Positions 43,866 to 61,555 of a stretch of 64,000 bases of DNA are shown here, piece after piece; position 1 is the first letter of the stretch; every line of letters begins with the position of its first letter. A program made the translations under genes and the position numbers. This stretch comes from a virus. Where the stretch lies: positions 1 through 64,000 of the IMG/VR virus record IMGVR_UViG_3300006028_000010. The stretch is one strand, 5' to 3'. A model generated the notes under the pieces. That model was not told the origin of the DNA. It did not search any database and worked only from the letters and a program-made list of their open reading frames with translations.

Positions 43866-46316
43866 TTAGACGTACGCGGCGGATGGGGCGGTGGGGGTGT
43901 CGGCGAGTGCTGCGGTGGCGCACCCGGTTGTTGATTCGGTGGTGGTGTTGGTGGCCGAGGCGGCGACGATTGTGACGCGGCCGTTGGTTGCGGTGGCTGC
44001 GCCGGCGAGGGCGGCGGTGATGCTGTGGTTCCCGACCAGTTCGGCGTTGGACACGCCGCTACTGGTGACGACCAGTTCCCCGTTGGTGGCGGAGCTGAGG
44101 ATCGTGACCCGGCCGTTGATTCCAGCTGCGGTGACGCTGATGCCACCGGCGGTGGCCAGCGGGGGCCAGGCCGCGGGGTGGGAAACCACCGCGTGTCCGT
44201 GGGCGTTGTCGGCGCTGGCGGCGATGTCGTCGCTGACTGGCCGTGCTTGGGTGGTGAGCCAACGAATGGCGGTGTCGGTGGTGGTGGCAGCGTCTGCGGC
44301 GAGGGAGAGCAGGGGGGCGCGGTAATAGGCGCTGGACACAACGTCAGCGGCGACGGCTTGGTCGGTGCTGGTGTCACGAAGCAGGTCTTGTGTACGGGTC
44401 GTGGTGTCGTCGCCAGCCCCGGTGATGTCGGTGGCGGCGCGGTAGGTTACCCCGGACGCGGCACCGGCCGTGTCCGTTGCGGTGGCGGCGTCGCTGACCA
44501 CCCGGCTGCTGACGGTGGCCGCGCTGGCGCTGTCCCCAGCGGGAGCGGTATCGCCGCTGGCTACCCGATTGCTGATGGTCGCGCTGGCGGCGCTGTCCAA
44601 AGCCGAAGCGGTGTCGTTGACCACCCGGCTGCTGACGGTGGTCGCGCTGGTGCTGCTTTCCCCAGAGGAAGCGGTATCGCTGATCGGGCGCCCGGCACCC
44701 GTAACGGGAGTAACAACATCGGCGGAGGTCGCGGTGTCGGCGCGGTCGCGTGCCGCAGTGTTTGACCGGGTTGCGGCGTCGCTGGTGACAGCGGCGTCAC
44801 CAAGGGCGCGGTCTTGGAGACCGCTAGATGATGAGGTGCTGACGAATTCCGTGGCGGGCGCGGTGCCCGATGTTTCGCGTAACACGATCAGGGCGCGACC
44901 GGCGCCGTCTGCGGCGGTGCCGCTGTCCGTGACAGCGCGGGTAACGGTCAGACCGCGGCTGGTGGCTTCTACGAATGCTGCTGTGGAATCGGCGGTGCTG
45001 CGGGCAAGGGACCGCGGGGAGCGGGTTGCGGTGTCAGCGGTATTCGCCGAGTCGGCGCAGCCGCGTACCCGGGTGGGGATACTGCGGGCGGCAACGTCGA
45101 GGAAAGCGGCTGCCGTGTCCGGGGTGGCGCGGGCCTCAGATAGCGGCGAGTGAACGGCGGTGTCCGCGGCAGCGGCGATGTCAGCGGCAACACGCGCCCG
45201 GACCGGGGCGCTACGCGCGGTCGTGTCAGCGCCCAACGCGCTCTCAACGGTGGCTCTGCCGAAAGCCTGGGTTGCGCGGCTTTCGGTGTCCGCGCCCGCA
45301 GCGGTGTTGTCCGTGGCCACGCGAACCAGGGCGAAGGCGCGGGACGAGGCGTCTGAGGCGGTCGCGGTGTCCAGCGACGCGATGCGGACTTTGGTGCCAG
45401 CGCTGCGGGTAACGCTATCGGTGGCCGTGGTGATGTCAGTGCTGACCCGCGCCCAGGTGGCGCCGCCGCGGGTGGCGCCGTCCGCGGCTGTCGCCGTGTC
45501 CGGGGCGGCGCGGGTACTAGATCGCGATGAGCGGGCCGCGGTGTCAGCGACGGCAGCGCTATCAGCAACGGAACGCGCCCAGCCCACGAGTGCGCGGCCA
45601 ATCGCATCAACAACAGGTGCGCTGTCAATACCCAACCTGGGTAGAACCGGAGTTGCCCGGGTGGCGGTTTCCGTTGCTTGCGCGGTGTCCGCAATGACCG
45701 CTCGGATCAGGGCGAAGGCGCGGGCCACGGCGTCGGTGGTGGGCGCCTGATCTGAAGTAGTACGCGATTTGGCGGCGCCGCAGGTCACAGCGTCCGTGGC
45801 TGTCGCAGTGTCGGCGCGGGCACGGGTGAAACTCAGCGCCGAGCGGGCGGGGGCATCCGACGCGGCGGACGTGTCCCCAGCAGCCCCGGCTTTAACCGAA
45901 ACCCGTGTCGCGGTGTCCGTTGCGGTGGCGGTGTCCGTCGTGACGCGGGTGAGGGTTGACGCTGCCCGGCTGGTGGCGTCAACAGCGCCGCCAATGTCCG
46001 TGGCGGCGCGGGAACCCGCAGCGCCCCGGGTTGCCGCGTCGGTGCCCGTCGTTGCGTCCGCGACGGTGCGGGTGACTTGAGTGGTTCTCCCCGCCGCGTC
46101 GGTAGCTGGCGCGTTTTCGCCGTCAGGGCGGGTTTTTAATCCTGCGACCCCGGTGACGGAATCCGTCGCTAGGGTCGTATCAACCACGGTCCGGGTTTTC
46201 GCGGCAAACCTTGACACGGAATCAGTCGCTGACGCCGTATCGGTTGCCGTCGCAGTAACAGTGCGCGCCGCTAGGGGAAGCCAGTGAGCGTGATAATGCT
46301 TGACCGCCACGGTCAA
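43866..46316 (-). CDS. 816-aa Ala/Thr/Asp/Arg-rich repeat protein (putative fibre scaffold)
   Basis: ~20-21-aa repeat R...D.A.A.D...R; C-terminal PAAWPPLAT. Confidence 0.8.
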   Translation of the reverse strand: MTVAVKHYHAHWLPLAARTVTATATDTASATDSVSRFAAKTRTVVDTTLATDSVTGVAGLKTRPDGENAPATDAAGRTTQVTRTVADATTGTDAATRGAAGSRAATDIGGAVDATSRAASTLTRVTTDTATATDTATRVSVKAGAAGDTSAASDAPARSALSFTRARADTATATDAVTCGAAKSRTTSDQAPTTDAVARAFALIRAVIADTAQATETATRATPVLPRLGIDSAPVVDAIGRALVGWARSVADSAAVADTAARSSRSSTRAAPDTATAADGATRGGATWARVSTDITTATDSVTRSAGTKVRIASLDTATASDASSRAFALVRVATDNTAAGADTESRATQAFGRATVESALGADTTARSAPVRARVAADIAAAADTAVHSPLSEARATPDTAAAFLDVAARSIPTRVRGCADSANTADTATRSPRSLARSTADSTAAFVEATSRGLTVTRAVTDSGTAADGAGRALIVLRETSGTAPATEFVSTSSSSGLQDRALGDAAVTSDAATRSNTAARDRADTATSADVVTPVTGAGRPISDTASSGESSTSATTVSSRVVNDTASALDSAASATISNRVASGDTAPAGDSASAATVSSRVVSDAATATDTAGAASGVTYRAATDITGAGDDTTTRTQDLLRDTSTDQAVAADVVSSAYYRAPLLSLAADAATTTDTAIRWLTTQARPVSDDIAASADNAHGHAVVSHPAAWPPLATAGGISVTAAGINGRVTILSSATNGELVVTSSGVSNAELVGNHSITAALAGAATATNGRVTIVAASATNTTTESTTGCATAALADTPTAPSAAYV

Positions 46317-46331: not shown

Positions 46332-46988
46332 TCAGTCCAATGTGAGCACGCACCATGGGTACGCTCGCCCGGTGCCAGCGGTTTGTTTAAGGATGAACGT
46401 GGCCCCCTGGTTGGACGACACCGGAACGGTTTCGATGATGGGGACACCGAGCGTGTTAGCGAATGTCTGATAATACTGGTCCCGCAGGGTGCCGGCCGCC
46501 AGTACGGGTGTTTGTACATGCAATTCCAGAATATCCCCGGATGCCATCGCCGCGAGGTCAACACGCAGCACCCGCGTTTTGTTGGTGCTGGGCGCCGCCA
46601 ATGTGTGCGAGGTGCCGATTACTGCGGTTTGGGTGCCAGATGATTCGACCGCCGGGACGAGGCCCGTAGTAAGTATCGTCCACGGATATGCTTTGGCTGC
46701 GCCCGCGGTTTGTTTAAGGGTGACCGTCAAACCCTGGTTAGCGGTAACCGGGATGGTTTCAACGATCGGAACACCGGGCGCGTGGAAATAAGTCTGATAT
46801 AACTGATCGCCCACTGCGCCAGCGGCGAGTACCGCTGACTTGAGGCGAACCTCAATCGTGTCACCGGCCACCATCGCACCGCGATCAATCCGCAGCAACC
46901 GGCACTGACTAGTGCTCGGCGTCGCCAGCGTATGCTCAGTACCTATGACTGTTGTTTGGGTGCTCGATGACTCGACGGTAAGGGTCAT
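46332..46988 (-). CDS. virion beta-domain protein with internal tandem duplication
   Basis: Two ~107-aa copies (ESS.TQT.VIGT.HTLA.PST...LKQTAG...AYPW). Confidence 0.75.
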   Translation of the reverse strand: MTLTVESSSTQTTVIGTEHTLATPSTSQCRLLRIDRGAMVAGDTIEVRLKSAVLAAGAVGDQLYQTYFHAPGVPIVETIPVTANQGLTVTLKQTAGAAKAYPWTILTTGLVPAVESSGTQTAVIGTSHTLAAPSTNKTRVLRVDLAAMASGDILELHVQTPVLAAGTLRDQYYQTFANTLGVPIIETVPVSSNQGATFILKQTAGTGRAYPWCVLTLD

Positions 46989-47812
46989 CAGCCGAATCCC
47001 GTCAGCGTGATGTTAGGCCGCGAGGCGGTGGAAATCGACGTGCACTGGTAACGCGCCGCGAGGCTAATGCCCGCAGGAATGTCCACGGGGAATAGCAGCG
47101 GTCTCCCGCAGTTGATCTCTTCATTCACGGACACAGAAAACGGCAGGTCCGGGATGATGACCCCGGGGGTGGCGCCCGTTCCAATGTCCAACAAGCCATC
47201 CCCCGCGGTCGCCGTCGTGGTGGGCGGTGAGCTGATGCCTACCAGCATCCAGCGAGCGGGGGCGGTGGTCGTGGCGATGGCTGTCCACGCCGATTTGGTG
47301 TTGATCGCGGTGGGTGCGGCGATCGCGGTTCCGGTGCTGGATGCGGTGACCGCCCCGTAGGTCACCGCCCGGTGCGCGGCCTCGATGCCCTGCCCCCCAC
47401 CGAAAAGGCGGATGGCGAACGTGTTTGCTTTGCTGGCAACCGCGGAACGGACTCGCATTACCACGCGGCTACCGATAGGGATGTACAGCGGGAATGACCA
47501 GGATGCGAACGCTACCGATCCGCCGAACGCGATATCTTGGCTGATGGCGACCTCAGCTCCGGATGCTCCCCGACCTAGGTCTAGTAGTGCCTGAGTGTTG
47601 CTGGCCGCTACCGCCCATCCGGTTTTTCCCATAAACAGCTCGACACCGAAGACCGGAAACGTGACCCCCGCGTGCAGCTGTATCCAGTTTCCTACCGCGT
47701 TAACCGTGGCTGAGGCTGTCACAGTCGTCATAAGCGAAGTGGTCGGGACGTGTCCGCCCATGCCGTTGCATCCCGCATCGGACACAAACCAGGGCACTAG
47801 CTCGACCCCCAC
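46988..47812 (-). CDS. virion beta-domain protein with two related halves
   Basis: LLD(L/I)G.GA...FP..IP.G repeated twice. Confidence 0.7.
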   Translation of the reverse strand: MGVELVPWFVSDAGCNGMGGHVPTTSLMTTVTASATVNAVGNWIQLHAGVTFPVFGVELFMGKTGWAVAASNTQALLDLGRGASGAEVAISQDIAFGGSVAFASWSFPLYIPIGSRVVMRVRSAVASKANTFAIRLFGGGQGIEAAHRAVTYGAVTASSTGTAIAAPTAINTKSAWTAIATTTAPARWMLVGISSPPTTTATAGDGLLDIGTGATPGVIIPDLPFSVSVNEEINCGRPLLFPVDIPAGISLAARYQCTSISTASRPNITLTGFG

Positions 47813-48222
47813 CCGGCCTGCAAATCGATGTCCTGAAAATCGAACCGGTAGCGGTACGGCCCGAGCATCTGCCCGATCCGAGCCTGCATCGCTTGACTAT
47901 CGTTAGCGGAAAGTGAAGCCCATGCCGAGGTGAGTGTGGGGTCGGCAACCAGATCCACCACCCGGTCCACGAGAGTAGCGACAGGGGCGGCCACATAATT
48001 TCTCGCGGTGGTGTCCCAGATCAGTGAGGCGTCTGGTTCGTTACCTATTACTAAAACATCAGTACCGGACGGCAGAGGTAAATCCAGGGTGGTACCCAAA
48101 GAGAGCAGTTCACCCGTGGTCGTGTCATAGAGGGCGTACCAGAGGGTTTGCGGAACGGCAGTTATATTGTTGTAGGGGGTGATTTTTGCTTGGAGCGCGT
48201 AGCTGCGGCCTAAACGAGACAA
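47797..48222 (-). CDS. virion protein with N-terminal MSRLGRS motif
   Basis: GGGGGA RBS and TTG start at 48222. Confidence 0.65.
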   Translation of the reverse strand: MSRLGRSYALQAKITPYNNITAVPQTLWYALYDTTTGELLSLGTTLDLPLPSGTDVLVIGNEPDASLIWDTTARNYVAAPVATLVDRVVDLVADPTLTSAWASLSANDSQAMQARIGQMLGPYRYRFDFQDIDLQAGWGSS

Positions 48223-48279
48223 CTGAATCCCCCCCTGCACTGTTACTGTTGCGTGCGGTGGGCAACAGACCGTCCCCGA

Positions 48280-48780
48280 TCAACATTCTTGCCAGAGCAC
48301 CCATGTGTAACAATTGACGGCGACTGGGGCGGTGACCCGCACCCTCAAGAACTTGCTGACCGGGACTTGTGGTTCGTTGTCCAGTGGCCACTGGTAGCTG
48401 TATTGGTTGGTGGGCGCGATGAATTGTAAATCAAATTGCCGGGTGGCGGTGATGGTGCCTTCGGCGGTAGCGGTGTATCCGGTGGCTGTGGTGCCCAGTG
48501 TGACTAAAGATAGGGGAGCATTCGGGTCGTTGAACGCCTGCACCCCGGTGGAGGTGTGCGCGGTGACCGTGGCAGCCACGTCGGTTTGGAGTAGTTCACA
48601 TCGGATGGGGGTAGCGGCGGCGCTGCCGTCGAAGCTGATGGACCATGCTTTGATGGTGAGCGGCCGGGTCGCTGGGGTGGCGATTTGCAGCATCGTTTTG
48701 ATGGCGGAGCCGGTGGTGACCGGTGCGAACGCGGCGGTCGTGGGCATGGGGCCATTGCCGGCCCAGTACAGATCAGGCAC
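48280..48780 (-). CDS. small beta-rich virion protein, paralogue of 53264..53749
   Basis: SISFDG.AA..P...YQWPL..E...W.E. Confidence 0.75.
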   Translation of the reverse strand: MPDLYWAGNGPMPTTAAFAPVTTGSAIKTMLQIATPATRPLTIKAWSISFDGSAAATPIRCELLQTDVAATVTAHTSTGVQAFNDPNAPLSLVTLGTTATGYTATAEGTITATRQFDLQFIAPTNQYSYQWPLDNEPQVPVSKFLRVRVTAPVAVNCYTWVLWQEC

Positions 48781-48839
48781 CTTAGTCTACCCCATTACCG
48801 ATAGTAAGATCGTCGGACGGCCTCTTGGGCAAAGAGTGT

Positions 48840-49391
48840 TCATTCGCCTGGGTCGAGGCCGGCGATCGCGCTGAACACATTCGTCGGGACAGTGGAATTA
48901 ACGGTGAAATTGAGGTTGGTGTCCGTTTCCATCTTCTGCACCGTGCCGGTCGCGCCACCAACACCGTTACCAGGCCAAGGGATTGAGAACGTGGTGGTGC
49001 TCAACACCGTCACGACCCACGTACCGTTGGCGTTGGTGTTCACCGCGTGGTTGAGGACCTCCACCACATCACCGGAGGTGTATCCGTGTACTGGCGTGGT
49101 GATCACGATGGGGTTAGCGTTGGTCGATGACGTGATCGCAATTGGGGCGAACCACGACAGCGATAGCCCAGGGTCGGAGGCCACCGCCGCCACAAACGAC
49201 GGTAGATACGAGTCCGGGTTAACGAGGATCCGGTTAGCTAGTCGTCGACGCTTCCACCAAGCGTTGACGCTTAGTGTGCCTTGCGGTTCGGTGGATACGT
49301 TCATCGCGGCCTTGACCATCGCCGCTCGGATCCGTGCCTGGAATGACGCGTCGTTCACGAGCTGCGCGCCTTGACCTAGCGTCAACGCCAT
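48840..49391 (-). CDS. virion protein with an E1-FCCH-like beta insert
   Basis: AITSSTNANPIVITT..HGY.SGD.V...NGTWVVTV...TTFSI. Confidence 0.7.
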   Translation of the reverse strand: MALTLGQGAQLVNDASFQARIRAAMVKAAMNVSTEPQGTLSVNAWWKRRRLANRILVNPDSYLPSFVAAVASDPGLSLSWFAPIAITSSTNANPIVITTPVHGYTSGDVVEVLNHAVNTNANGTWVVTVLSTTTFSIPWPGNGVGGATGTVQKMETDTNLNFTVNSTVPTNVFSAIAGLDPGE

Positions 49392-49417
49392 CGAGAACTC
49401 TCCTCATGCGGGCTCGA

Positions 49418-50083
49418 TTACCAGTAATAGGACCGTCGCACAGCCTCCTGAACCAACACCCTCGGAGGAGGTGGCGGAGGTACAGGCGGAACAGCGAACG
49501 TCACCGCGAACCAAGTGCCAGACCCCCCACCGAACGCGCCGGGGTTTTCGCTTGCGGCGTTGAGCTGGCGCGTTCCTACAGCCACACTTAGACCAAGCCC
49601 GTTCAGGGGATTAACAAGCCCGGCATAGTTCGTTGGGAGAGTCGCGGCGGTTGACCCCGCATACGATTCAGCGGCTATCCATAACGTGTCGAGTTGGCCG
49701 TAGCTCGGCGTGTACGAGGGTGGGTCACCACTACCTGTACCACTAGTCGCGAAAGTACCGATCTGTGGTGCAGTGACAGCCGATGCGGTAGTAATCCGGA
49801 GCATCACCCAAGCCCACGAAACGGTAGTAGCCGCAGTTAATGACGGTGGCGAATCACCAGTCTGATAATACCGGTACCCAGACTCCAACTTATTGGCGGT
49901 GCCACCGTTGTTGTTGAGCTGTGTCCAACCGGTCCAGCCTGTCGTTTGCCCAGCAGAAGTACCCGCAGCGGCAATCAACAGCAACAAATCGCCTTGGGTT
50001 ACACCTGTGGGAAAAGTTATAGTGGTTATCGTTGCTGCGGTCGCTATACCGTTAGAGCTTGTGGCAACAGACGGAAACGCCAT
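49418..50083 (-). CDS. Thr/Gly-rich beta-domain virion protein with C-terminal QEAVRRSYYW motif
   Basis: GDLLLL..A domain; near-copy of the second domain of 53766..55028. Confidence 0.75.
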   Translation of the reverse strand: MAFPSVATSSNGIATAATITTITFPTGVTQGDLLLLIAAAGTSAGQTTGWTGWTQLNNNGGTANKLESGYRYYQTGDSPPSLTAATTVSWAWVMLRITTASAVTAPQIGTFATSGTGSGDPPSYTPSYGQLDTLWIAAESYAGSTAATLPTNYAGLVNPLNGLGLSVAVGTRQLNAASENPGAFGGGSGTWFAVTFAVPPVPPPPPPRVLVQEAVRRSYYW

Positions 50084-50149
50084 CTACATCACGCTTTGAT
50101 TAAAGCTGGAAAAACCCATCGGTGATGAGGCGTCTTCAGGAATAGGCAT
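50084..50149 (-). pseudogene. 21-codon relic ORF MPIPEDASSP..., in frame with the downstream gene
   Basis: Strong AAGGAGG RBS; N-terminus resembles MAIAEDASTP of 58503..61010; ends TAG directly before the ATG at 50083. Confidence 0.45.
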
Positions 50150-50190
50150 GGGCCTCCTTTGGGTACCTCTGAAACGAGGGCGCCTCGCGT

Positions 50191-53181
50191 TTAGTGAGCA
50201 ATAAATGCGGGTGGGGTTAGTGTGGCGGTGGGTGCTCTGAGTGTCGCGAATTGTGGTCGGCTGGTGGCGTTGGGGATGAGCGCGGCGCTGGTGGCGTGTG
50301 GTGGCCACGGCGCGGGGTACAGCCAACGGGTGGTGTCCGCTGCGGCGGCGGTGTCCGCGGTGGTGGCGGTGATCAGGACCTGGGTGATCGCGGTAGCGGC
50401 GTCGGTGGTGGGCGCGGGGTCGCCAAGGAGTCGGGTGATGCGACGGCCGGTGACGGTGGTGGTGTCGGTGACCGCCGCGGTGTCCGTAGCGGTTCGGGTC
50501 TTGACTGGCGCCCCGACGGGGGTGTCGGCTGCGGGTGCGGTGTCCAGCGCCAGGGACCGGAGCTGGGTCAGCGCCTGGGTTTCCGCGTCTAGGGCGAGAG
50601 CTGTGCCGGTGACCGGTCGGGCTGTGCTAACCCGGCGGGTCAACGCGTCGGCGGCGGGTGCGGTGTCGGTGGTCGCCCGGGGTTGGGCCGCTGCCCTAGT
50701 GACGACCCCGGTTGCTGGTGCGGTGTCGGTGGGGGCGCTGGACTGGGTGCCCGCGGTTGCGGGCGTGTCCACCGCGGTCGCGGTGTCCCCTCGGTTGCGG
50801 GTCAGGGTCAGCCCGCCGCGGAGTGCGGCGTCCGCGGCGGGCGCTGTGTCGGTCGTGACCGCAGACGCGCCCCGAACTGGGGTGGTCGTGTCGTTGACGG
50901 TGGCGGCGTCGGTTGCGGTGCGGGTGAATAGCTGAGCTGTTCGGGTGGTGAGGGCGGTGGCGGTGGCGGGGTCTGGGGTGCTGCGGACGCTGGTCGTGGC
51001 CCGGGTGGTGGTGTCGGTCCCGGCGGCAGCGTCGGTTGCGGCGCTGATCCGCGTCGTGGCTCGGGTGGCGGCGTCGCCGGCAGTAGCGGTGTCCGCGGTG
51101 GCCCGGGGCGTGGTGGCCAGGACCCGGGTGGTGGTGTCCGCTGCGGTCGCCGTATCGGTGGGCGCGGCACTCGCGACGTGACCTGAAGAAGCAGCGTCCC
51201 CCGCCGTCGCGACGTCGCCCGTGCTGCGCCCTAGGGCCACCGTGGCGCGCTGGGTTACGTCGGCGGGTAGGGCAGTGTCGGTGGCTGCCCGCGTCGCAGT
51301 GCGGGCTCGCGTGGGCAGGTCAGTGACGGTGGTTGCGTCCGCCGCGGCCCGGGTCCGGGTGGTGCCACCACGGGTGGCGGTGTCCGATGCGGTGGCAGCG
51401 TCCGCGGTGCCCCTGGCCCCCGCACCCGCGGCCCGACTCGTGGCGTCGAATGCCCCCGCGGTGTTGTCGGTAACCAGTCGGGTCTCGATCGGCGAGCGGG
51501 TTGCGGCGTCGGTGGCGGGTGCGGGGTCGCCACCGATCCGCGTGGAGGTTCTACCCCGAACAGCTACGTCAACAGCGGAAGACGACGCGTCGGTAACCAC
51601 CCGGAGCTGCGCCGACACCCGGCTACCCGCATCGGTAACCGGTGCGAGATCACCGACCGCGCGGGCGCGGACCGATATCGGGCCGGCCACGTCGGCGCTG
51701 TGCGCGGTGTCGCTGATCGGCCGTGCCGCGATACCAGTACGAGAAGCTGCATCAGCGGCCGGTGCGATGTCGGCAGCGGCGCGGGGGTTTGTTTCAGCAC
51801 CCCGAATGGCGGTGTCAGTAGCGGGCGCGGTGTCCGCGGTGGCGGTGCGCGTGGCGTGCCCAACGCTCACCGCATCAGCTGCGGTCGCGGTGTCTGTGCC
51901 GCCGCGGCCCAACCCGAGAGCGCTCCGTCCGGTACTGTCCGACGCCGACGCAAGGTTGGTACCGGCGCGACTGAAGGCGCTAACACCGCGGGCGGACACC
52001 TCGCCGGCGTTGGCGGTGTCGCTGGCCGCACCCGTAAGGCTTTGACCTGCGCGAACGGCCGCATCGGTCGCAGCAGCGGTGTCCGTAACGGCGCCGCGGG
52101 TGAGAACCAACCCGGCCCGGGTGACGGCATCCGCCACCGGGGCGGAATCAACGAGGCCGCGGGTTTTCCCGCTCGCGTCGCGAACAACCGCATCGGCTGC
52201 TGCGCTGGTGTCAACTGTTGACCGCGCCAGTAACAGCGTCGCCCTGACCGGGGTGTCCGCGGCGGGTGCGGAATCCGCGGTGCTACGGGTGATGCTTTGC
52301 GCTGACCGCGCGACACCATCAGACGCGGACGCTAGATCACCAACGGTTCGCGCTTTGGTTAACGCGCTGCCCGTGGCAACGTCGCTAGCCGAGCTCGTGT
52401 CACCTAATGCCCGGGCGAACAGCTGAGATGGGCGGGTAACAATGTCCGCGGCGGGGCTAGCGTCCGCTCTAGCCCGAGCCGTGGTGATAGTTCGGGCGCA
52501 GCTATCACTAGCGCTGGCCGAGTCGCCCAGCGTGCGTGACCAAGCCGCTGCGCCACGAGAAGTGCTATCAGTGGCCGCTGCCGCGTCGGCGGCGCCGCGA
52601 ATGAACACCTGGCCAGCGCGCGAGCTTACGTCCGTGGCGGCAGCAGCGTCGGCGACGGCCCGGGAATGGGGCGCCGTCCGGCTGGTGCCATCGACCGCGG
52701 GGGACGTGTCGGTGGCACCACGAACCCACGCCGACCCGGATTTGGCCGCCGCGTCCGCGGCTGACGAGGTGTCCGTGGTGGCCCGCGACTGCACAGCAGC
52801 ACGGGTCACGGAATCCGTGGCGCCGCCGCCGGAATCAGAAACAGCGCGTGTTTTCAGCGCCGCGCTGCTTACTGTCGCGTCCACTATGGGAGCCGTGTCC
52901 GCGGCGGCGCGGATCAGGGCTTGCGCGGTTTTCGACGAGGTGTCCGTGGCCGCAGCGGTGTCGGCGGCCACCCGGGTTTTGATTGCTGCGCTGGTGGTGA
53001 CCGCATCGACCGCGCCCGCGGTGTCCACGGCGCCCCGGGTGGGGACAAAAGCGGCCCGAGGGGCCGCGTCAGTCGCCGCAGCGGTGTCCGCCGCAGCGCG
53101 CGTTAAAGCAGCCGACCCCGCCCCGGGAATCGGCCGAATCCAGCGAACCCGATCGGGGAAACCGCGCCCAAGCCTGGCCAT
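50191..53181 (-). CDS. 996-aa repeat protein (putative fibre scaffold) with N-terminal MARLGRG motif
   Basis: ~20-21-aa R...D.A.A.D repeats over most of its length; C-terminal PAPWPPHAT. Confidence 0.8.
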   Translation of the reverse strand: MARLGRGFPDRVRWIRPIPGAGSAALTRAAADTAAATDAAPRAAFVPTRGAVDTAGAVDAVTTSAAIKTRVAADTAAATDTSSKTAQALIRAAADTAPIVDATVSSAALKTRAVSDSGGGATDSVTRAAVQSRATTDTSSAADAAAKSGSAWVRGATDTSPAVDGTSRTAPHSRAVADAAAATDVSSRAGQVFIRGAADAAAATDSTSRGAAAWSRTLGDSASASDSCARTITTARARADASPAADIVTRPSQLFARALGDTSSASDVATGSALTKARTVGDLASASDGVARSAQSITRSTADSAPAADTPVRATLLLARSTVDTSAAADAVVRDASGKTRGLVDSAPVADAVTRAGLVLTRGAVTDTAAATDAAVRAGQSLTGAASDTANAGEVSARGVSAFSRAGTNLASASDSTGRSALGLGRGGTDTATAADAVSVGHATRTATADTAPATDTAIRGAETNPRAAADIAPAADAASRTGIAARPISDTAHSADVAGPISVRARAVGDLAPVTDAGSRVSAQLRVVTDASSSAVDVAVRGRTSTRIGGDPAPATDAATRSPIETRLVTDNTAGAFDATSRAAGAGARGTADAATASDTATRGGTTRTRAAADATTVTDLPTRARTATRAATDTALPADVTQRATVALGRSTGDVATAGDAASSGHVASAAPTDTATAADTTTRVLATTPRATADTATAGDAATRATTRISAATDAAAGTDTTTRATTSVRSTPDPATATALTTRTAQLFTRTATDAATVNDTTTPVRGASAVTTDTAPAADAALRGGLTLTRNRGDTATAVDTPATAGTQSSAPTDTAPATGVVTRAAAQPRATTDTAPAADALTRRVSTARPVTGTALALDAETQALTQLRSLALDTAPAADTPVGAPVKTRTATDTAAVTDTTTVTGRRITRLLGDPAPTTDAATAITQVLITATTADTAAAADTTRWLYPAPWPPHATSAALIPNATSRPQFATLRAPTATLTPPAFIAH

Positions 53182-53263
53182 CGCGACAGCCCCCCACCGA
53201 GCGGCTCAATACGTTATTGCCCGGCGGGGGATGCCCTCAAGAAACGGGCCGCTACAGAATGGG

Positions 53264-53749
53264 CTATTCAGTCCACGCGAGGCAGGCTGTGCACGCCACT
53301 ATAGCCGGGGCCACGCATTGAATACCGATACCGCTGCCAGCCACCGCGGGGGTCACCACCTCTAAACCGAGGGGTATTTGGTAAACCATTCCCGAGGTGG
53401 GGGAGATGTACCAGCTGCGAAGCATGACACCCACGGTGGGTGCTGTTGTTGCATACACCCCCGGGCTTGCCGTGGTGGGCATATACGCGGTGCATAAACT
53501 GGCCGGGGAGTTGGTGTCGGTCGGCGTTGGCGCCTGGGTGATCGTGCCGCCCCCCACCGGAACCACCGTGGTCCGCACCACCCGAACAATTACCGGTACC
53601 GCCGTCGCGCTGGTGCCGTTGAACGTCACCGACAGCTCATTCAGGCCCATGCGCCGGGTGGTGCCAGTGGGGGTAACATCCAGCACCACCAAGGCAGTCG
53701 CCGCGCCCAGGTTAATACCTTCCGATATGGCAACATACTGGTCGGCCAC
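53264..53749 (-). CDS. small beta-rich virion protein, paralogue of 48280..48780
   Basis: SVTFNG.SA..VP...YQIPL..E...W.E. Confidence 0.75.
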   Translation of the reverse strand: MADQYVAISEGINLGAATALVVLDVTPTGTTRRMGLNELSVTFNGTSATAVPVIVRVVRTTVVPVGGGTITQAPTPTDTNSPASLCTAYMPTTASPGVYATTAPTVGVMLRSWYISPTSGMVYQIPLGLEVVTPAVAGSGIGIQCVAPAIVACTACLAWTE

Positions 53750-53765
53750 AGCACCCTCTTATTCG

Positions 53766-55028
53766 CTAAAAGTTCGCGGCGCGTGCCACGGCCTGGGAGA
53801 CAATCCGAAGTCTGATGGGAACACCACCTGACACCGGGGGTACGGCGAACGTCACCGCGAACCAGGTGCCAGAACCCCCACCGAACGCGCCGGGGTTTTC
53901 GCTCGCGGCATTGAGTTGGCGGGTTGCTATAGCCACGCTTAGACCAAGCCCGTTTATGGGATTAACAAGCCCGGCATAGCTCGTTGGGACGGTAGCCGCG
54001 GTTGACCCCGCATACGACTCCGCCGCTATCCATAGCGTGTCAAGCTGACCGTAACCCGGCGTATACGACGGTGGGTCACCACTACCTGTACCACTAGTCG
54101 CGAAAGTACCAATCTGCGGCGCCGTGGAGGCCGATGCGGCAGTGATCCGAAGCATTAACCAAGCCCAAGAGACAGTAGTGGCCGCGGTTAACGTCGGAGC
54201 GGTATCACCGGTTTGGTAATACCGGTACCCGGATTCCAGTTTGTTAGCAGTACCACCATTGTTGTTCAGCTGAGTCCAACCGGTCCAGCCTGTCGTTTGC
54301 CCAGCAGAAGTACCCGCGGCGGCGATTAACAGTAATAGATCCCCCTGCGTTACACCCGCAGGGAAGGTGGTGGTTACTGATGCCGCGGTTGTTGTGCTAT
54401 TAGAGTTACTAGCAACGGTCGGAAACGCCCCGGGTGGGACGGCTATCGTTGCGGCATACCAGGTGCCACTGAAACCGGCAAAAGCGCCGGGGTCTTCCGT
54501 GGCGGTCGTGAGTTGCCGCGTTCCTATCCCCACGGTCGGCCCGACCGCCGCGGAAGACTGGACCAATCCCGTGTAGTTGGCGGGCGCGGCACTCGGAATC
54601 GCGTTACCGGTAGCTGACGCTATGGCTATCCATAACGTGGCGGCGCTTCCGTAGCTCGCGGTATACGACGGCGGGTCAGGCTGACCGCTCGCGGAGGTCG
54701 AGAATGTGCCCACCTCGGGCGCGGCGGTAGCACTTCCTCCGGTGATTCGTAGCATTAGCCACGCCCACCCCGTGGACGGTCCACCAATGGTTGGTGCGGT
54801 ATCCCCGGCCTGATACCGGCGATAAGCAATCTCCGCTTTTCCACCGAGCGTGGTGTTCACGAGCTTGGTCCATCCGGTCCACCCGGTGGTGGTTCCCGGT
54901 GCCGCACCCGTCGCGATCACTAGGAGCAGTAAATCCCCAGCGGTGACACCCGTGGGAAATGTTGTCACCGCTGAGGTACCGGAGGTGACCGTGTTACTTG
55001 AACTGGTGGCAACAGTGGCGAAACTCAC
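53766..55028 (-). CDS. two-domain Thr/Gly-rich virion protein with C-terminal SQAVARAANF motif
   Basis: Two ~200-aa GDLLLL domains. Confidence 0.75.
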   Translation of the reverse strand: MSFATVATSSSNTVTSGTSAVTTFPTGVTAGDLLLLVIATGAAPGTTTGWTGWTKLVNTTLGGKAEIAYRRYQAGDTAPTIGGPSTGWAWLMLRITGGSATAAPEVGTFSTSASGQPDPPSYTASYGSAATLWIAIASATGNAIPSAAPANYTGLVQSSAAVGPTVGIGTRQLTTATEDPGAFAGFSGTWYAATIAVPPGAFPTVASNSNSTTTAASVTTTFPAGVTQGDLLLLIAAAGTSAGQTTGWTGWTQLNNNGGTANKLESGYRYYQTGDTAPTLTAATTVSWAWLMLRITAASASTAPQIGTFATSGTGSGDPPSYTPGYGQLDTLWIAAESYAGSTAATVPTSYAGLVNPINGLGLSVAIATRQLNAASENPGAFGGGSGTWFAVTFAVPPVSGGVPIRLRIVSQAVARAANF

Positions 55029-55037: not shown

Positions 55038-55688
55038 TTACATACTGACTGTTTCAGTAACGGTCAAAGCGTCGCCGGTGGCCGTCAACGTGGCGGTGGG
55101 TGAAATAAGCGTCAAAAACTGCGGACGACCAGTCGCGCCGGACAGGGTATTAAAAATACCCATCTTTCCAATAGTGCGCGCCCCAAAAGTCTGGTCAGTA
55201 CCCGTGTACGTAAAAGTCGCCGCCAGCGAATAAGAGGCCACCGTGGTGGTGTGCGCGTAGGTGGCGAGTTTCCGTAAACAACCCGAGCTGGCCGCAGTAA
55301 TTTCCGAAGTAAGGGTCGAGTCCGTGGCCAAGACGGTGGCCGTGTCAGTGCTGATCGCCATATACCAGTAGGGCGCCTGGCCAGGCACAATCATGAACAC
55401 GGTGGTCGCGGTCGGCGTTGTCGCCGGGCCGGAACCGGGGGTGCCCAACGCATACCACTGATCCACCGTCAACTGAGACGTAGTATTCGCTGTGATAACC
55501 CCGTACGCCGCTGCTGCGGAAACGGTGACCACAATGTGCCCAATGTAGGCACTGGCCACGAACGGTGTGCCGGTGGCTGTTAATGTGGTGGCCGTGCTGG
55601 CGGTGGCTGTGCCAGTATACCCAGCAAGATCACCACCCATCGAGGCGGCTTGGGCGTCAGTCCCGCTATTGATCCGGATCTTGAACAC
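55038..55688 (-). CDS. tail-collar/fibre-base-like protein
   Basis: YMAISTD....ATD.TL.SE...TIG..GIFN...GD.LTVT. Confidence 0.65.
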   Translation of the reverse strand: MFKIRINSGTDAQAASMGGDLAGYTGTATASTATTLTATGTPFVASAYIGHIVVTVSAAAAYGVITANTTSQLTVDQWYALGTPGSGPATTPTATTVFMIVPGQAPYWYMAISTDTATVLATDSTLTSEITAASSGCLRKLATYAHTTTVASYSLAATFTYTGTDQTFGARTIGKMGIFNTLSGATGRPQFLTLISPTATLTATGDALTVTETVSM

Positions 55689-56128: not shown

Positions 56129-56482
56129 TTAGTGATGCGTTTCCTCGCGGTGCCGGCCGGTGGGTTCGTTGGGGGACAGTTGGTGTTTGAGCCGCAGGTC
56201 GAGGAGGCTGCTGCCCAGCCAGAGGCATTGGGTGAACCCGAAACACAGGAACGCGGCGACCCCGGCGACGGCTGGGGTGACGAGCAGCGCACCAGTTCCG
56301 AGGAGCACGTAGAGGGCGGCGGCGAACACGCGGCAGGCCACGGTGCGGACCAACCCGCGGCGCCGCACATCACCTGCCGTTTTGTTGCGTCGGATGCGGA
56401 TGAGGGTCACGGTTTGCGCGGTCAACGCGACCGTGCTGATGACGAGGAAGGCGCCGGGTGCTGCGTCGAGGGCGAAACTCAT
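56129..56482 (-). CDS. membrane protein (3 TM)
   Basis: Hydrophobic segments. Confidence 0.65.
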   Translation of the reverse strand: MSFALDAAPGAFLVISTVALTAQTVTLIRIRRNKTAGDVRRRGLVRTVACRVFAAALYVLLGTGALLVTPAVAGVAAFLCFGFTQCLWLGSSLLDLRLKHQLSPNEPTGRHREETHH

Positions 56483-56512
56483 CGGTCGGGGCCCCGCCTT
56501 CAGGCGTGGGGT

Positions 56513-56965
56513 TTATGACCGCGGGGCCTCGTCTTCGATGAGTTCCCCACCTTCGGTCATCGCGTCTTCGGCTGCCTGGGAGGCTTCGGCGTTCATCCGC
56601 ATCCGGTTGGTGACCCGCAGTTCCTCGATTTGGCGGTGCGCGATGTCCAGGTCGGTGTGGAGTGTGGCGATGATCGCGGCCATGCGGGAGTTCTCGTCGT
56701 GCGCCCTGGTCAATTGTTCGGTGAACCGGGTGCGGTCCGTGCTGGCATCGCTTTCCGCTTTTTCGAGTCTCGTGTCGAGGGCTTTCACTTGCTCTTGAAG
56801 CATGGTCACCAGCGCCGCCGCGGCGGTGATTTGGGTGGCGTCGGAGGTGGTGTTGTTCATCCGCAGTTGGGATTTGCGGGTGAACAAGAAAATGAACAGG
56901 GGCACGGAGGCTGCGAATATGGCCACCATGGAGGTGGTGAGCGCACTGGGCAGGTCGACGGTCAC
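56513..56965 (-). CDS. membrane-anchored coiled-coil protein, possibly lysis-associated
   Basis: N-terminal TM helix and heptad-rich C-terminus. Confidence 0.7.
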   Translation of the reverse strand: MTVDLPSALTTSMVAIFAASVPLFIFLFTRKSQLRMNNTTSDATQITAAAALVTMLQEQVKALDTRLEKAESDASTDRTRFTEQLTRAHDENSRMAAIIATLHTDLDIAHRQIEELRVTNRMRMNAEASQAAEDAMTEGGELIEDEAPRS

Positions 56966-58502: not shown

Positions 58503-61010
58503 CTATAGTGATTCTGTGCTGGCCAGGGACACCCACGGGCTGGCGTCACCCGAGACTTCGGTGATCCGCCGGGTGTACACGTCGGGAATGATGATCGGGT
58601 GCCGCCTAATATCGAGCAGCATGGAATCACCCACCCGATAGGAGCCGAGGCCGGGTTCACCGTCGGCGCGGGTTTTCACCGTCCATTTGTCAACGGGTAG
58701 CGTGTACCGCGCCAGTGAGGCCCGCGCGTAGGAGTCCAACGCGGCTGGGTCGGCCACCGAACTTTGGGAGGTGTCGACCTCTTCCAACGCGGGGAACCCT
58801 TGATCCACCAACTGGTTGTCCACCCACCAAGACATCAGTTTCTTCTCGTCTTGTCCCGAGCCGGGGACGAACAGCATGCTGGCCATTCGGGCGGCGTCAA
58901 TGTCTTGGCTGATCAACGAATTGGAATCGTCGAAAACCCAGGGATCGCTGGTCGACCCAAGGTGCGGGTTGCCGATGTTGAGTTCCCACGCCACATACAG
59001 CCCGTCGCGCCCGGTTTGCAGATAGGGGTCCAAGCGAAAATCTGGGCCGTCTTCTAATGTGACGATGCTGTTGATCGCTTCGGTGGCTGTGACGGTGTCG
59101 AACCCTTGGAAGAATCGGGTGACCGATCCTTGGGTTGAGGGTGGGTTGCTGCACGTGATGGGCAGTTCCCGCCCGGTGCGCCACCACGTGGTTCCCGGGA
59201 TTTGTGAGGTGGCCGAATCGATGATCTGTTTGACCATGTCGCCGGGGCTGGTGGGTCCCAGGCTTAACGACCCGGCGGGGTCCGTCAGGACGCGCTTATC
59301 GAAAATGCGGGCCAGCTCGGAGGCGCCGATATCGATTTTCGGGGTGTCCCCCGGGATGGTGCCCGGCAGGTAGGGGCCGGCGAACACGACAGCGTTGCCC
59401 CACACCAGGACCAGCGAGATCCGGTAGGGGCCGGTCAGGACTTCCCGGAGGGTGGCCCTCGGATCGATCGACCCGGTGGCCGCGATCTGGTCCAAGGCGT
59501 CTTCGATGACCAGGGATGCGCGTAGCTGCCCGACCGCGTTGATCGGGGTGTTCCATTGGATCGACTCGAAGGGTAGTTCCCACCCGATGCGCCCGGTGCG
59601 GGTGTCCGCCGCGTAAAGCCGGTACTGCGGGGTTTGCACCGGGTGGTAGACGCTGCCAGCGGGGGTGACCAAAGCCGGTCGGTAAGAGTCCGCGTTGGCA
59701 ACAAGCCGGGATGAGACGACCAGGAGTACGAGGTCCGAACCGCCGCCTACCAAATATGGGCCGATGACAGTGAATTGCGCGGCAGCGCGCAGCGTAGCCG
59801 CTACCGCCGGAACAGTCCCACCGGAAGTTAATACGGTGATGCTGCGCAGATTCGCGGCCCCAGCCCAGGTGGTGAACAACGTACCCGCGAACCCCGACTG
59901 GGCGTTAAGTTGCGCACCAACCGGGATGAACCCGAACCCGACAATCCCCAGGCTTGAGGTCGCGGCCAATCCGCCGCCCGCCTTGGCGGGTGTTAACAAC
60001 CCGGTGGTGACCAGTTGGGAATTCGCCAGCAGCGCGGTCGGGGGTGTCGTCAACCCGCTGAACAAAGACGTGGCGCTCAAGGTGGCCTGGGACACCGCGT
60101 AATACGTCAGCGCCGCGCCCAGATTAGAGCTGGTCACCAACGTTGCCGCGGCTACAGGTACCGCCGCGCCGGCAACAAGGTTGGATTGCCCCGCTAACGT
60201 GGCCGTCAGGAGCTGGGTAGGTGCCGACGCGGATATGTTCGATGTCGCCGCCAGCGTTGCTGCCCCGGCCGGAAGTGACGCCCCCACCGTCAATGACGAT
60301 GCGGCAGCCAGCGTCGCCACACCGACCGCGGCGGCCGTGGGCAGAATCTCTAAAGCGGCGGTGTTGCTCTTGTCCGCGGTGGGCCACGTGCCACCGAACG
60401 ACGGGGACGTGCCCACCGCAGCTGACGTGGTGGCGCTAGCCGAACGCCACGCCACAAGCCGTACCGTGTCAGTCGTGTCGTTATAGTCACCACTCGCGAC
60501 AATGGTAGTAGCCGCATTAGGGGTCAGCGCCTCATTGATCGAACAGTTATCCGAGATCCCATAAACCCACGACCCGGTAACTGTCAGCGGGACAGTGAGC
60601 GCCCCATTAGTGGTGCCCGTCGCATCAACCCGTGTGTTAGAACCCGCGCCCGCCTGGCTACTAGCCGCGCCCGTAAGCACCCGAACGGCCAGCATCCGCC
60701 CGCCACCAAGATTGGTGAACGTCGCGGACACCGTCATCGCACCCGGCGCGGTAGTCAGATAACGCGTGAATATTTTGGCGACACCACGCGCGGCACTCGC
60801 TGTGCCCTGCGCATTAGGCCCCGCGGTCCACGTGCCCCCAACGGAGTCCGTGACCGAAGCATCCATGAGGCTGCCGCTGCCCCAACCACCAGCGACCAAA
60901 GCGACCAACAGTGACTGCGCGGGGGGCGTGAACGACGCGGTGGTACACGCCCCCGACGTGCCAGTAACCGGGACAGGCGCCGGGGTTGATGCGTCTTCGG
61001 CGATAGCCAC
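58503..61010 (-). CDS. minor tail (baseplate hub-like) protein fused to an N-terminal beta domain and ATL.A.S.L repeats
   Basis: C-terminal ~370 aa YRLY.ADTRTG....ELP...W...N..G...GPDFR..P typical of actinophage minor tail proteins. Confidence 0.8.
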   Translation of the reverse strand: MAIAEDASTPAPVPVTGTSGACTTASFTPPAQSLLVALVAGGWGSGSLMDASVTDSVGGTWTAGPNAQGTASAARGVAKIFTRYLTTAPGAMTVSATFTNLGGGRMLAVRVLTGAASSQAGAGSNTRVDATGTTNGALTVPLTVTGSWVYGISDNCSINEALTPNAATTIVASGDYNDTTDTVRLVAWRSASATTSAAVGTSPSFGGTWPTADKSNTAALEILPTAAAVGVATLAAASSLTVGASLPAGAATLAATSNISASAPTQLLTATLAGQSNLVAGAAVPVAAATLVTSSNLGAALTYYAVSQATLSATSLFSGLTTPPTALLANSQLVTTGLLTPAKAGGGLAATSSLGIVGFGFIPVGAQLNAQSGFAGTLFTTWAGAANLRSITVLTSGGTVPAVAATLRAAAQFTVIGPYLVGGGSDLVLLVVSSRLVANADSYRPALVTPAGSVYHPVQTPQYRLYAADTRTGRIGWELPFESIQWNTPINAVGQLRASLVIEDALDQIAATGSIDPRATLREVLTGPYRISLVLVWGNAVVFAGPYLPGTIPGDTPKIDIGASELARIFDKRVLTDPAGSLSLGPTSPGDMVKQIIDSATSQIPGTTWWRTGRELPITCSNPPSTQGSVTRFFQGFDTVTATEAINSIVTLEDGPDFRLDPYLQTGRDGLYVAWELNIGNPHLGSTSDPWVFDDSNSLISQDIDAARMASMLFVPGSGQDEKKLMSWWVDNQLVDQGFPALEEVDTSQSSVADPAALDSYARASLARYTLPVDKWTVKTRADGEPGLGSYRVGDSMLLDIRRHPIIIPDVYTRRITEVSGDASPWVSLASTESL

Positions 61011-61141: not shown

Positions 61142-61555
61142 CTAGGTGAAACTGGCGACGAGCGCCCCTATGGCAAAGCTAAGCGTGTCACCGGCGGCGG
61201 TTATACGGGGAGTAGTCAACGCTCCGAACCATTCCCGGCGCGGGGTGGCCCCGTTGTCGTAAACCTCGACACCTTGCACACCAGGTGAGCCAACGGCGGG
61301 CATCCCGGTGAAGTTGATCGCCGCGACGTTCGAGTTACTCAACGACGCAGCCGAGGCCATCGTGAACGCTTGCCGCGCGTAGGAGCCGCCAGTGACTTCG
61401 GTGCCGGCCGTGGTGGTTGTGCCCACGGTGCTGCTCAGAGCGAGCCGCATCCCGGAGGTGCCGCCCCCGCCGGTGAGGCTGGGTGCGGTGTAGGTGGCGA
61501 CCCCGAAGCTCGCGTCTAGTAGCCGGTTGCCTTCGGTGGTGGTCAACGCTGCCAT
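61142..61555 (-). CDS. small phage tail-fibre-associated protein
   Basis: N.LLD...LAL....GTEVTGGSYARQ...F...GAL......GDTLSF..GAL. Confidence 0.75.
   Translation of the reverse strand: MAALTTTEGNRLLDASFGVATYTAPSLTGGGGTSGMRLALSSTVGTTTTAGTEVTGGSYARQAFTMASAASLSNSNVAAINFTGMPAVGSPGVQGVEVYDNGATPRREWFGALTTPRITAAGDTLSFAIGALVASFT

What the first reader, a model, noticed from the sequence alone, without database searches (positions are those of the whole stretch)
47797..55028. Repeated tag-hub-tag gene cassettes: putative plug-and-socket virion appendage system
Seen: the same arrangement occurs twice in transcription order. First a Thr/Gly-rich GDLLLL-domain protein ending in a short shared motif (IVSQAVARAANF at 53766; LVQEAVRRSYYW at 49418). 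Then a ~160-aa beta-rich paralogue ending W-x-E (53264..53749; 48280..48780), with one extra gene inserted before it in the second cassette. Then a protein starting M(A/S)RLGR (MARLGRGF, 996 aa; MSRLGRSY, 141 aa) whose remaining sequence is unrelated between the copies. Inference: the terminal motifs are docking peptides that plug exchangeable cargo (adhesin-like domains, long stalks) into a common hub protein, giving branched, reconfigurable fibres. I know of no named system with this grammar.
Basis: partly seen in the sequence, partly recalled or inferred. Interest (0 to 1): 0.8.

Follow-up and report, generated by a model that had tools for sequence, protein, structure and literature searches.

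The report
Peptide-tagged head–clamp–rope phage fibre module
An uncultured soil phage carries two copies of a gene set (variable head protein, small jelly-roll protein, long repeat "rope" protein) marked by short conserved end-peptides; the set recurs in dozens of other uncultured phages and probably joins exchangeable host-binding heads to bead-on-a-rope tail fibres.

Summary
The window is the first 64 kb of a 100-kb uncultured phage. Both cassettes lie between the tail genes and the endolysin.

In about 90 related viral contigs:
- The C-terminal motif (..A-h-x-R-A-x-x-F/Y/W-end) occurs 45 times, always on the hub strand and within 3.4 kb of a hub gene. It never occurs on the opposite strand.
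- The N-terminal motif (MARxGRxFP..) occurs 50 times on the hub strand against 3 on the opposite strand. 47 of the 50 lie just downstream of a hub.
- Both motifs flank the same hub far more often than chance predicts (p = 1e-9).

What the parts are:
- The hub is a single jelly-roll. Its family has at least 1,449 clusters and no Pfam or PHROG entry.
- The C-tagged proteins are hypervariable tandem beta-sandwich "heads".
- The N-tagged proteins are mostly ~20-residue repeat proteins.
- Gp80-family bead genes sit beside the module in 31 loci.

The nearest known system is therefore the GP4/A1002/Bas63 "chain-like" fibre.

A fusion supports the docking idea. One tagged head is 45% identical to the N-terminus of the window's 835-aa protein, where the head is fused directly to rope-like repeats.

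Best reading: the hub clamps the head's C-tag to the rope's N-tag. Binding itself is untested. "Branched" fibres are not supported.

The parts
61142..61555 (-). 137-aa Gp80-family fibre 'bead' protein
   Evidence: Pfam PF23140 (podophage GP4 fiber I gp80), E 1.9e-14, above the curated cut-off. Homologues lie just upstream of the hub or C-tag genes in 31 related loci.
58503..61010 (-). 835-aa fusion: N-terminal head domain (residues 1-229), rope-like A/T/S/L repeats (about 230-450), C-terminal minor-tail domain
   Evidence: Residues 1-229 are 45% identical (E 1e-41) to the body of the separate, C-tagged 234-aa head of L007. Residues 458-830 match phrog_1885, minor tail protein, E 3.6e-44. The repeat region has only a weak period of about 19.
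55038..55688 (-). 216-aa protein immediately upstream of cassette 1; possibly a divergent Gp80-like bead
   Evidence: It occupies the slot that Gp80-like genes occupy in L012-L015. Its C-terminal 40 residues follow the Gp80 consensus pattern by eye, but hhalign probability is only 0.2% and there is no Pfam hit. Weak.
53766..55028 (-). 420-aa protein: two tandem head units plus a Pro/Arg linker plus the C-tag IVSQAVARAANF (codons at 53769-53804)
   Evidence: The fold is taken from the paralogue model m599f177e9504: two beta-sandwiches and an unstructured tail.
53264..53749 (-). Hub 1: 161-aa single jelly-roll, ends ..AWTE
   Evidence: AF2 pLDDT 90.1, nine strands. Best structural matches are small jelly-roll capsid, penton and decoration proteins, Z 8-9.5. 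83 close homologues; family of 1,449 clusters.
50191..53181 (-). 996-aa 'rope': N-tag MARLGRGFPDRVRWIRP (53131-53181), then about 45 repeats of about 21 aa (R-x3-D-T-A-x-A-x-D type)
   Evidence: N-tag orthologues are in L009-L015.
49418..50083 (-). 221-aa head (two beta-sandwich domains, residues 1-99 and 102-201) plus poly-Pro linker plus the C-tag LVQEAVRRSYYW (49421-49456)
   Evidence: AF2 pLDDT 90.8; residues 201-221 have pLDDT about 58 and no secondary structure. Each half matches receptor-binding or lectin-like jelly-rolls at Z 6-8.
48840..49391 (-). 183-aa extra gene between head 2 and hub 2
   Evidence: Weak match to phrog_584 (E 1.9e-4). A 179-aa homologue precedes a third hub type in L005/L008.
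48280..48780 (-). Hub 2: 166-aa paralogue, ends ..LWQEC
   Evidence: 29% identical to hub 1, E 2e-8. Matches the hub profile at E 5e-55. An orthologue lies in L007/L011 between a C-tag gene and a repeat-protein gene whose start (MARAGLSF) is only a degenerate N-tag.
47797..48222 (-). 141-aa N-tagged protein (MSRLGRSY..) without repeats
   Evidence: TTG start with a GGGGGGA ribosome-binding site. Other short N-tagged proteins (95-136 aa) exist in L028, L044, L059 and L081.
46988..47812 (-). 274-aa protein of unknown role inside the block
   Evidence: No Pfam or PHROG hit.
46332..46988 (-). 218-aa protein made of two ~105-aa internal repeats
   Evidence: Read from the translation. No family hit.
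43866..46316 (-). 816-aa second rope-like repeat protein (period 21) without a clear N-tag
   Evidence: 33% identical to the 996-aa protein, E 3e-27. Period 21.

Best explanation
The region encodes two copies of a conserved tail-fibre module of uncultured high-GC soil phages.

Each module has three proteins:
1. A hypervariable 'head' of two beta-sandwich domains. It ends in a flexible Pro/Arg linker and a 12-residue C-terminal peptide (h-h-x-x-A-h-x-R-A/S-x-x-F/Y/W).
2. A ~160-aa single-jelly-roll protein, the 'hub'.
3. A protein that begins M-A-R-x-G-R-x-F-P... and in most cases continues as tens of ~20-residue repeats.

The repeat protein is most likely a 'rope' like those of the chain-like fibres of phages GP4, A1002 and Bas63. 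Dimers of Gp80-family bead proteins would thread onto it, one per ~20 residues.

The hub most likely acts as a clamp. It would hold the head's C-terminal peptide and the rope's N-terminal peptide together. That gives, non-covalently, the same head-rope chain that the window's 835-aa protein has as one polypeptide. Because only the short tags and the hub must match, heads and ropes can be swapped by recombination at the linkers.

Shown here: the genes, the motifs, their co-occurrence, the folds, the repeat period, the cargo swap and the fusion.
Inferred: peptide-hub binding, bead binding, presence in the virion, and the role in host recognition.
For: Linkage of the motifs to the hub:
- All 45 C-tag ORFs lie on the hub strand within 3.4 kb of a hub, against 0 on the opposite strand. 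N-tags are 50 against 3, and 47 of the 50 are downstream of a hub.
- Both tags flank a hub in 16 of 97 cases against about 5 expected (p = 1.3e-9).
- Two gene orders occur, C-H-N and H-C-N. In H-C-N the C-tag stop and the N-tag start are about 0-30 nt apart, or overlap by 4 nt (coordinates).

Folds:
- The hub is a confident single jelly-roll.
- The head is two beta-sandwiches with a disordered tagged tail.

Modularity:
- Hubs and tags are conserved while bodies sit at the alignment baseline.
- Head bodies are mostly singletons by phmmer.
- In this window, DNA identity between the two head copies is 76-96% and collapses at the linker.

Fusion: the L007 tagged head is 45% identical (E 1e-41) to residues 1-229 of the 835-aa protein, which continues straight into repeats.

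Rope and bead link:
- N-tagged proteins have periods of 18-22 residues.
- In A1002, 226 rope residues carry 11 dimers, about 20.5 residues each (PMC13730344, sections 9 and 11).
- Gp80-family genes (PF23140) are in the window and in 31 loci, giving orders G-C-H-N or G-H-C-N.
- Mycobacteriophage Phaedrus has a period-20 minor tail protein next to a Gp80-like gene, with no hub homologue and no matching tags. So the hub goes with the tags, not with ropes as such.

Position: the block lies between the minor tail genes and the endolysin.
Against:
- C-tag similarity does not track hub similarity (Spearman 0.13, not significant). The N-tag correlation (0.39) is confounded by shared descent.
- With these regexes, 27 of 89 unique hub loci show no tag on the hub strand within the fetched flanks.
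- Hub 2's N-tagged partner is a 141-aa protein without repeats. The 816-aa rope has no clear N-tag.
- No hub fused to a head or a rope was found, though that search was weak.
- Rope C-termini are not conserved, so the virion-proximal end is not identified.
- None of these proteins occurs in a cultured phage. Virion incorporation therefore rests on gene position alone.
Confidence: 0.5

Rival explanations
1. The hub is itself a second kind of bead. Many hub copies would coat the ~20-residue repeats of the N-tagged rope, as Gp80 dimers do in GP4 and A1002. The terminal tags would attach head and rope to something else.
For: The hub is a small beta-sandwich of bead-like size, encoded next to a period-20 repeat protein. 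A1002 uses two different bead proteins on one rope (PMC13730344). Tandem double-hub proteins exist.
Against: - The hub shows no similarity to the Gp80 family (Pfam none; hhalign probability below 1%).
- Its model is all-strand, with no N-terminal helix of the kind described for the Bas63 whisker bead (PMC12609058).
- Repeat sequences differ completely between phages whose hubs are 66-70% identical to hub 1 (TD-type against TYTGVS-type), while the N-tag stays conserved.
- N-tags also occur on short proteins without repeats.
- True Gp80 beads are already present in the module.
- Ropes with beads exist without hubs.
Confidence: 0.17
2. The tags do not touch the hub. They dock head and rope onto another virion part (baseplate, Tal or Dit) or onto each other. 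The hub is then a separate structural, decoration or assembly protein that merely travels in the same operon.
For: C-tag and N-tag genes directly abut in H-C-N loci, so a direct tag-tag contact is possible. C-tag variation does not follow hub variation. 27 of 89 hub loci have no detected tags.
Against: - Every detected C-tag, and 47 of 50 N-tags, lies next to a hub.
- The two hub paralogues in one genome each keep their own tag variant even though the head was swapped.
- N-tag classes follow hub C-terminal classes: WTE, EVEEG, FERx.
Confidence: 0.23
3. The motifs are chance similarities or by-products of high-GC ORF calling. No real module exists.
For: The tags are short, and the genome has many spurious long ORFs.
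Against: The strand and position statistics, the confident folds and the hundreds of homologues all argue against this.
Confidence: 0.01

Closest known systems
Chain-like ('beads on a rope') fibres: GP4 fiber I (gp80 dimers + rope + tail-fibre adaptor), A1002 gp39/gp40/gp41, Bas63 collar-whisker
   Same: - A Gp80-family bead gene (PF23140) is in the window and in 31 related loci.
- The long partner proteins have a ~20-residue period, which equals the ~20.5 residues per dimer of the A1002 rope.
- In GP4 the separately encoded rope interlocks with a small beta-sandwich adaptor. That is the role proposed here for the hub.
- The 835-aa protein has a distal globular domain, a rope and a tail-anchoring domain in one chain. 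A1002 gp39 has all three in one chain too.
   Different: - The hub is an unrelated, larger (~160 aa) single jelly-roll family.
- A separate hypervariable head with a C-terminal peptide has no described counterpart.
- Ropes reach 700-1,270 aa (35-60 repeats), against 2-11 dimers in the solved phages.
It is probably an actinophage.
- Neither bead-rope nor hub-rope binding is shown here.
Adenovirus penton base-fibre tail, and PRD1 P31 penton with P5 and P2
   Same: A jelly-roll base protein receives short conserved terminal peptides of otherwise unrelated appendage proteins. The fibre has a short-period repeat shaft. In PRD1, two different proteins share one docking sequence.
   Different: - No sequence homology.
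- Structural similarity is generic jelly-roll (Z 7-9, alongside many unrelated jelly-rolls).
- One partner here docks by its C-terminus.
- The module sits in a tail gene block, not in a capsid-vertex gene set.
- The oligomeric state is unknown.
Adaptor-based receptor-binding-protein systems: TP901-1/Tuc2009 BppU-BppA-BppL, and T4 gp10-like adaptors of G7C and CBA120 (from general knowledge)
   Same: Exchangeable receptor-binding proteins attach through conserved anchors to a dedicated adaptor encoded beside them.
   Different: The anchors there are folded N-terminal domains, not 12-17-residue peptides. No Pfam or PHROG similarity to them was found. Those systems branch, whereas the polarity here suggests a linear joint.

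Membership tests
GP4-type chain-like fibre | A bead subunit of the Gp80 family (PF23140) is encoded in the locus | tested here: met
   The 137-aa gene at 61142-61555 matches at E 1.9e-14, above the curated cut-off. Three of ten tested hub-upstream proteins from other loci also match PF23140. A jackhmmer search finds relatives in 31 loci.
GP4-type chain-like fibre | A rope polypeptide offers serial docking segments of about 20 residues per bead dimer | tested here: inconclusive
   Period 21 in the 996-aa and 816-aa proteins, and 18-22 in N-tagged orthologues. This matches 226 residues per 11 dimers in A1002 (PMC13730344). Binding was not tested, and a self-folding beta-spiral shaft would give the same period.
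GP4-type chain-like fibre | The rope is anchored in a small beta-sandwich adaptor or collar | not tested
   The hub is a beta-sandwich. The GP4 93-aa adaptor sequence or chain was not at hand for comparison, and 8JOU did not appear among the listed fold matches.
Gp80 bead family (the hub as a member) | Sequence or profile similarity to PF23140 | tested here: not met
   Pfam gives no hit for either hub or for 44 diverse relatives. hhalign of the hub profile against the Gp80-like profile gives probability 0.1%.
PRD1/adenovirus-type vertex module | Single jelly-roll base protein | tested here: inconclusive
   The hub matches HHIV-2 6h82_b (Z 9.0, rmsd 2.6, 100 aligned) and PRD1 P5 (Z 7.5). It matches nanovirus and satellite-virus coats, Ena pilins and GOLD domains equally well.
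PRD1/adenovirus-type vertex module | Double jelly-roll major protein | tested here: inconclusive
   The head has two beta-sandwiches, but PRD1 and PR772 P3 align over one barrel only (Z 4.9-5.0, 90-96 residues). The Foldseek matches are weak (E about 8e-3, TM 0.2).
Known adaptor or RBP families (BppU, T4 gp10-like, LtfC etc.) | Pfam or PHROG profile match in the hub, head or rope | tested here: not met
   None for any of the six cassette proteins. Only the neighbouring 130-aa gene has a sub-threshold LtfC-like match.

The most novel reading that the evidence does not exclude
A large, unannotated jelly-roll family (at least 1,449 clusters at 50% identity) is a dedicated molecular clamp. It would join a 12-residue C-terminal peptide and a ~17-residue N-terminal peptide, letting soil phages assemble fibres from separately encoded, freely exchangeable heads and very long bead-coated ropes. 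This would be a natural split-protein 'plug standard' for host-range modules.
Probability: 0.4. Interest if true: 0.72.

Novelty: new variant of a known kind. Interest (0 to 1): 0.62.

Why it matters
If the hub really clamps the two tags, this is a compact, natural three-part connector for phage fibres. Short peptides alone would specify attachment, and that would explain how these phages swap receptor-binding heads; one such swap is visible inside this genome. It would also extend the recently discovered chain-like fibres from a few phages of Gram-negative hosts to a large group of uncultured soil phages, with ropes five to ten times longer. It gives a name and a testable role to a protein family of more than a thousand clusters that current databases leave blank. 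The peptide-clamp pair could be tried as a tool for phage host-range engineering in laboratory strains.

Tried and rejected
- Homology searches in cultured phages (INPHARED tblastn) with hub 1, the head and two distant hub relatives gave no match. The window's own Gp80-like protein also gave none. A better Gp80 query found cluster B mycobacteriophages.
Prophage hosts therefore remain unknown.
- The search for fused forms with lengths 'longer' covered only 556-2,000 aa, because the query alignment was wide. It found nothing, which is weak evidence.
- A PDB sequence-profile search with the hub family gave nothing.
- Hub C-terminal class against the Arg position of the C-tag shows no clean compensatory pattern (inspection).
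- The idea that head plus hub descend from a double/single jelly-roll capsid module was dropped. P3-type proteins align over one barrel only.
- Fold relatives in cultured phages (LIMEzero, CVT22, Coruscant) are themselves unannotated. The only 191-aa CDS in the part of the LIMEzero genome examined is its last gene, ORF57, which is the likely match but carries no functional clue.
- Rope C-termini were aligned to look for a common virion anchor. None was found.
- No fused 'C-tag then N-tag' ORF exists in the loci.
Full report
**Setting.** The window is the first 64 kb of a 100,329-bp IMG/VR virus record that CheckV rates as complete. GC content is about 63%. On the minus strand, from 63.7 kb down to 41 kb, lies a late-gene block:
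- an HNH nuclease;
- a virion structural protein;
- a 137-aa Gp80-family protein (PF23140, E 1.9e-14);
- an 835-aa protein whose C-terminal half matches the minor tail protein phrog_1885 (E 3.6e-44);
- a collagen-like protein;
- three small membrane proteins;
- the region of the finding;
- two more genes;
- an 816-aa repeat protein;
- a small LtfC-like protein (sub-threshold match);
- an amidase endolysin.

I did not check that note.

- The two heads share a domain that is 83% identical.
- The two hubs are 29% identical, E 2e-8.
- Hub 2 ends WQEC rather than W-x-E.
- The second RLGR protein needs a TTG start at 48222. That start has a good ribosome-binding site.

**It is a conserved module, not a local oddity.** Hub 1 has 83 close homologues, all unnamed metagenomic proteins.

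A profile search of 1.84 billion cluster representatives finds 1,449 hub relatives at E <= 1e-3 and 611 at E <= 1e-10. None of 44 diverse members hits Pfam or PHROGs. 109 of 149 representatives end in Glu, mostly as aromatic-x-Glu.

I fetched 12 close and 80 distant hub loci from viral contigs and scanned all ORFs of 100 aa or more.
- The C-terminal motif A-[VMLIAPQY]-x-[RSQHD]-[AS]-x-x-[FYW]-end occurs 45 times. Every case is on the hub strand, either 9-18 nt upstream of a hub or 1.1-3.4 kb downstream of its start. None occurs among 2,082 opposite-strand ORFs.
- The N-terminal motif M-x-[RQI]-[LIHTFA]-G-R occurs 50 times on the hub strand and 3 times opposite. 47 of the 50 lie 0-2.8 kb downstream of a hub.
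- Tags on both sides of a hub occur in 16 of 97 cases, against about 5 expected (Fisher p = 1.3e-9).
- Two gene orders exist: C-tag, hub, N-tag (the window's clade) and hub, C-tag, N-tag. In the second order the C-tag stop and the N-tag start are about 0-30 nt apart, or overlap by 4 nt (coordinates).

**What the three proteins are.**

*Hub.* It folds with pLDDT 90 as a nine-stranded single jelly-roll. Its structural neighbours are small viral coat, penton, turret and cement proteins, Ena pilins and TNF/C1q domains, at Z 7-9.5. That is a generic match and identifies no function. BFVD gives TM 0.64-0.80 matches, but only to uncharacterised phage proteins.

*Head.* It folds with pLDDT 91 as two beta-sandwiches (residues 1-99 and 102-201). 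Each resembles receptor-binding or carbohydrate-binding jelly-rolls at Z 6-8. Residues 201-221, the poly-Pro linker plus the tag, are unstructured with pLDDT about 58. Across loci the heads are about 240 aa long and hypervariable, mostly singletons by phmmer.

*N-tagged protein.* Nearly all are A/T/S/G/V-rich repeat proteins with a period of 18-22 residues. The repeat sequences differ between phages: a TD type here, TYTGVS..LTAA in L012, L013 and L021, GQA.ETD in L039, and LTGTLTTAGAL in L052. A few are short and have no repeats, among them the window's 141-aa protein.

**Link to chain-like fibres.** Recent cryo-EM work shows that Gp80-family proteins form dimers that thread like beads onto a rope polypeptide.
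- In GP4 the rope is a separate protein that interlocks with a small beta-sandwich adaptor.
- In Bas63 and A1002 the rope is part of a collar or nozzle protein (PMC12609058; PMC13730344).
- In A1002, rope residues 243-468 carry 11 dimers. That is about 20.5 residues per dimer by my arithmetic from sections 9 and 11 of PMC13730344, and it equals the period of the N-tagged proteins.

Gp80-like genes lie on the hub strand in 31 of about 89 loci, typically giving G-C-H-N or G-H-C-N. In this sample they are modestly enriched where an N-tagged repeat protein is present (12 of 24 against 17 of 65, p = 0.04).

Cluster B mycobacteriophages such as Phaedrus have a period-20 minor tail protein (gp31) next to a Gp80-like gene (gp32). 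They have no hub homologue and no matching tags. Ropes and beads therefore exist without hubs, and the hub goes with the tags.

**Evidence that the tags join head to rope.**
1. *Cargo swap inside this genome.* The two head copies are 76-96% identical in DNA across the body. Identity falls to background exactly at the linker and tag (about 53861 and 49510). Each cassette thus kept its own tag next to its own hub paralogue while the head was exchanged.
2. *Conservation pattern in the close clade.* Hubs are 68% identical, N-tags 59% and C-tags 43%. Head and rope bodies sit at the global-alignment baseline of 28-30%.
3. *N-tag classes follow hub classes.* Hubs ending WTE go with GRxFPxHVxWIRP, hubs ending EVEEG with M[AP][QR]HGRS, and hubs ending FERx with MARLGRRQPNRP. 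Shared descent is a confounder here.
4. *A fusion.* The separate, C-tagged 234-aa head of L007 is 45% identical (E 1e-41) over its whole body to residues 1-229 of the window's 835-aa protein. There the same domain runs straight into rope-like repeats and then the minor-tail domain.

The polarity is the same in both cases: the head's C-terminus meets the rope's N-terminus. The simplest reading is that head-tag, hub and tag-rope together form the non-covalent version of a head-rope fusion, with the hub as the clamp.

**Limits.**
- No complex could be predicted or measured.
- C-tag variation does not track hub variation.
- 27 of 89 unique hub loci show no tag within the fetched flanks.
- The 816-aa rope lacks a clear N-tag.
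- Rope C-termini are not conserved.
- No cultured phage carries the hub or the heads, so presence in the virion rests on gene position.

**Verdict.** The docking interpretation is partly supported by independent comparative evidence. It is better framed as a split head-rope junction within a GP4-type chain-like fibre system. That makes it a new variant of a known kind, built around a large protein family that current databases leave unannotated.

Noticed in passing
window 58503-61555 (-): A Gp80-like bead gene is immediately followed by an 835-aa protein with a head domain, rope-like repeats and a minor-tail (Tal-like) domain in one chain. A1002's nozzle-rope protein gp39 likewise combines a distal globular domain, a rope and a tail-anchoring domain in one chain.
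   Followed up: partly
L101 (Mycobacterium phage Phaedrus NC_011057) gp31-gp32, locus 5756-7372: gp32 is a Gp80-family fibre bead but is annotated 'head protein' in RefSeq. The adjacent minor tail protein gp31 has a strong 20-residue period. Cluster B mycobacteriophages may therefore carry chain-like fibres. 334 Mycobacterium phage records match.
   Followed up: partly
window 56129-57420 (-): Three small membrane or coiled-coil proteins (117, 150 and 152 aa; weak hit to a PHROG labelled 'hol-like chemotaxis') sit in the middle of the tail-fibre genes, far from the endolysin at about 42.5-43.2 kb.
   Followed up: no
window 46332-46988 (-): The 218-aa protein is an internal tandem duplication of a ~105-aa unit. 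Each unit ends ..AYPW(T/C)(I/V)LT. It has no family match.
   Followed up: no
window 42475-43923 (-): The mechanical endolysin ORF has a 240-residue Arg/Pro-rich N-terminal extension that overlaps the 130-aa LtfC-like gene. The amidase domain starts at residue 242, so the real start is probably near 43.2 kb.
   Followed up: no
window 43866-46316 (-): The 816-aa repeat protein has no MARLGR start. Its N-terminus (..HYHAHWLPLA) faintly resembles the second half of the N-tag (..YPAHVRWIRP). It may be a degenerate tag.
   Followed up: no
proteins P0202, P0227, P0262 (representative library): Some hub relatives are tandem double hubs (299-317 aa). Others carry a ~65-85-residue N-terminal extension of unknown nature.
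   Followed up: no
window 57399-58487 (-): A 362-aa protein with a short collagen-like GPVGPVGPVGPAGP stretch; probably another fibre.
   Followed up: no
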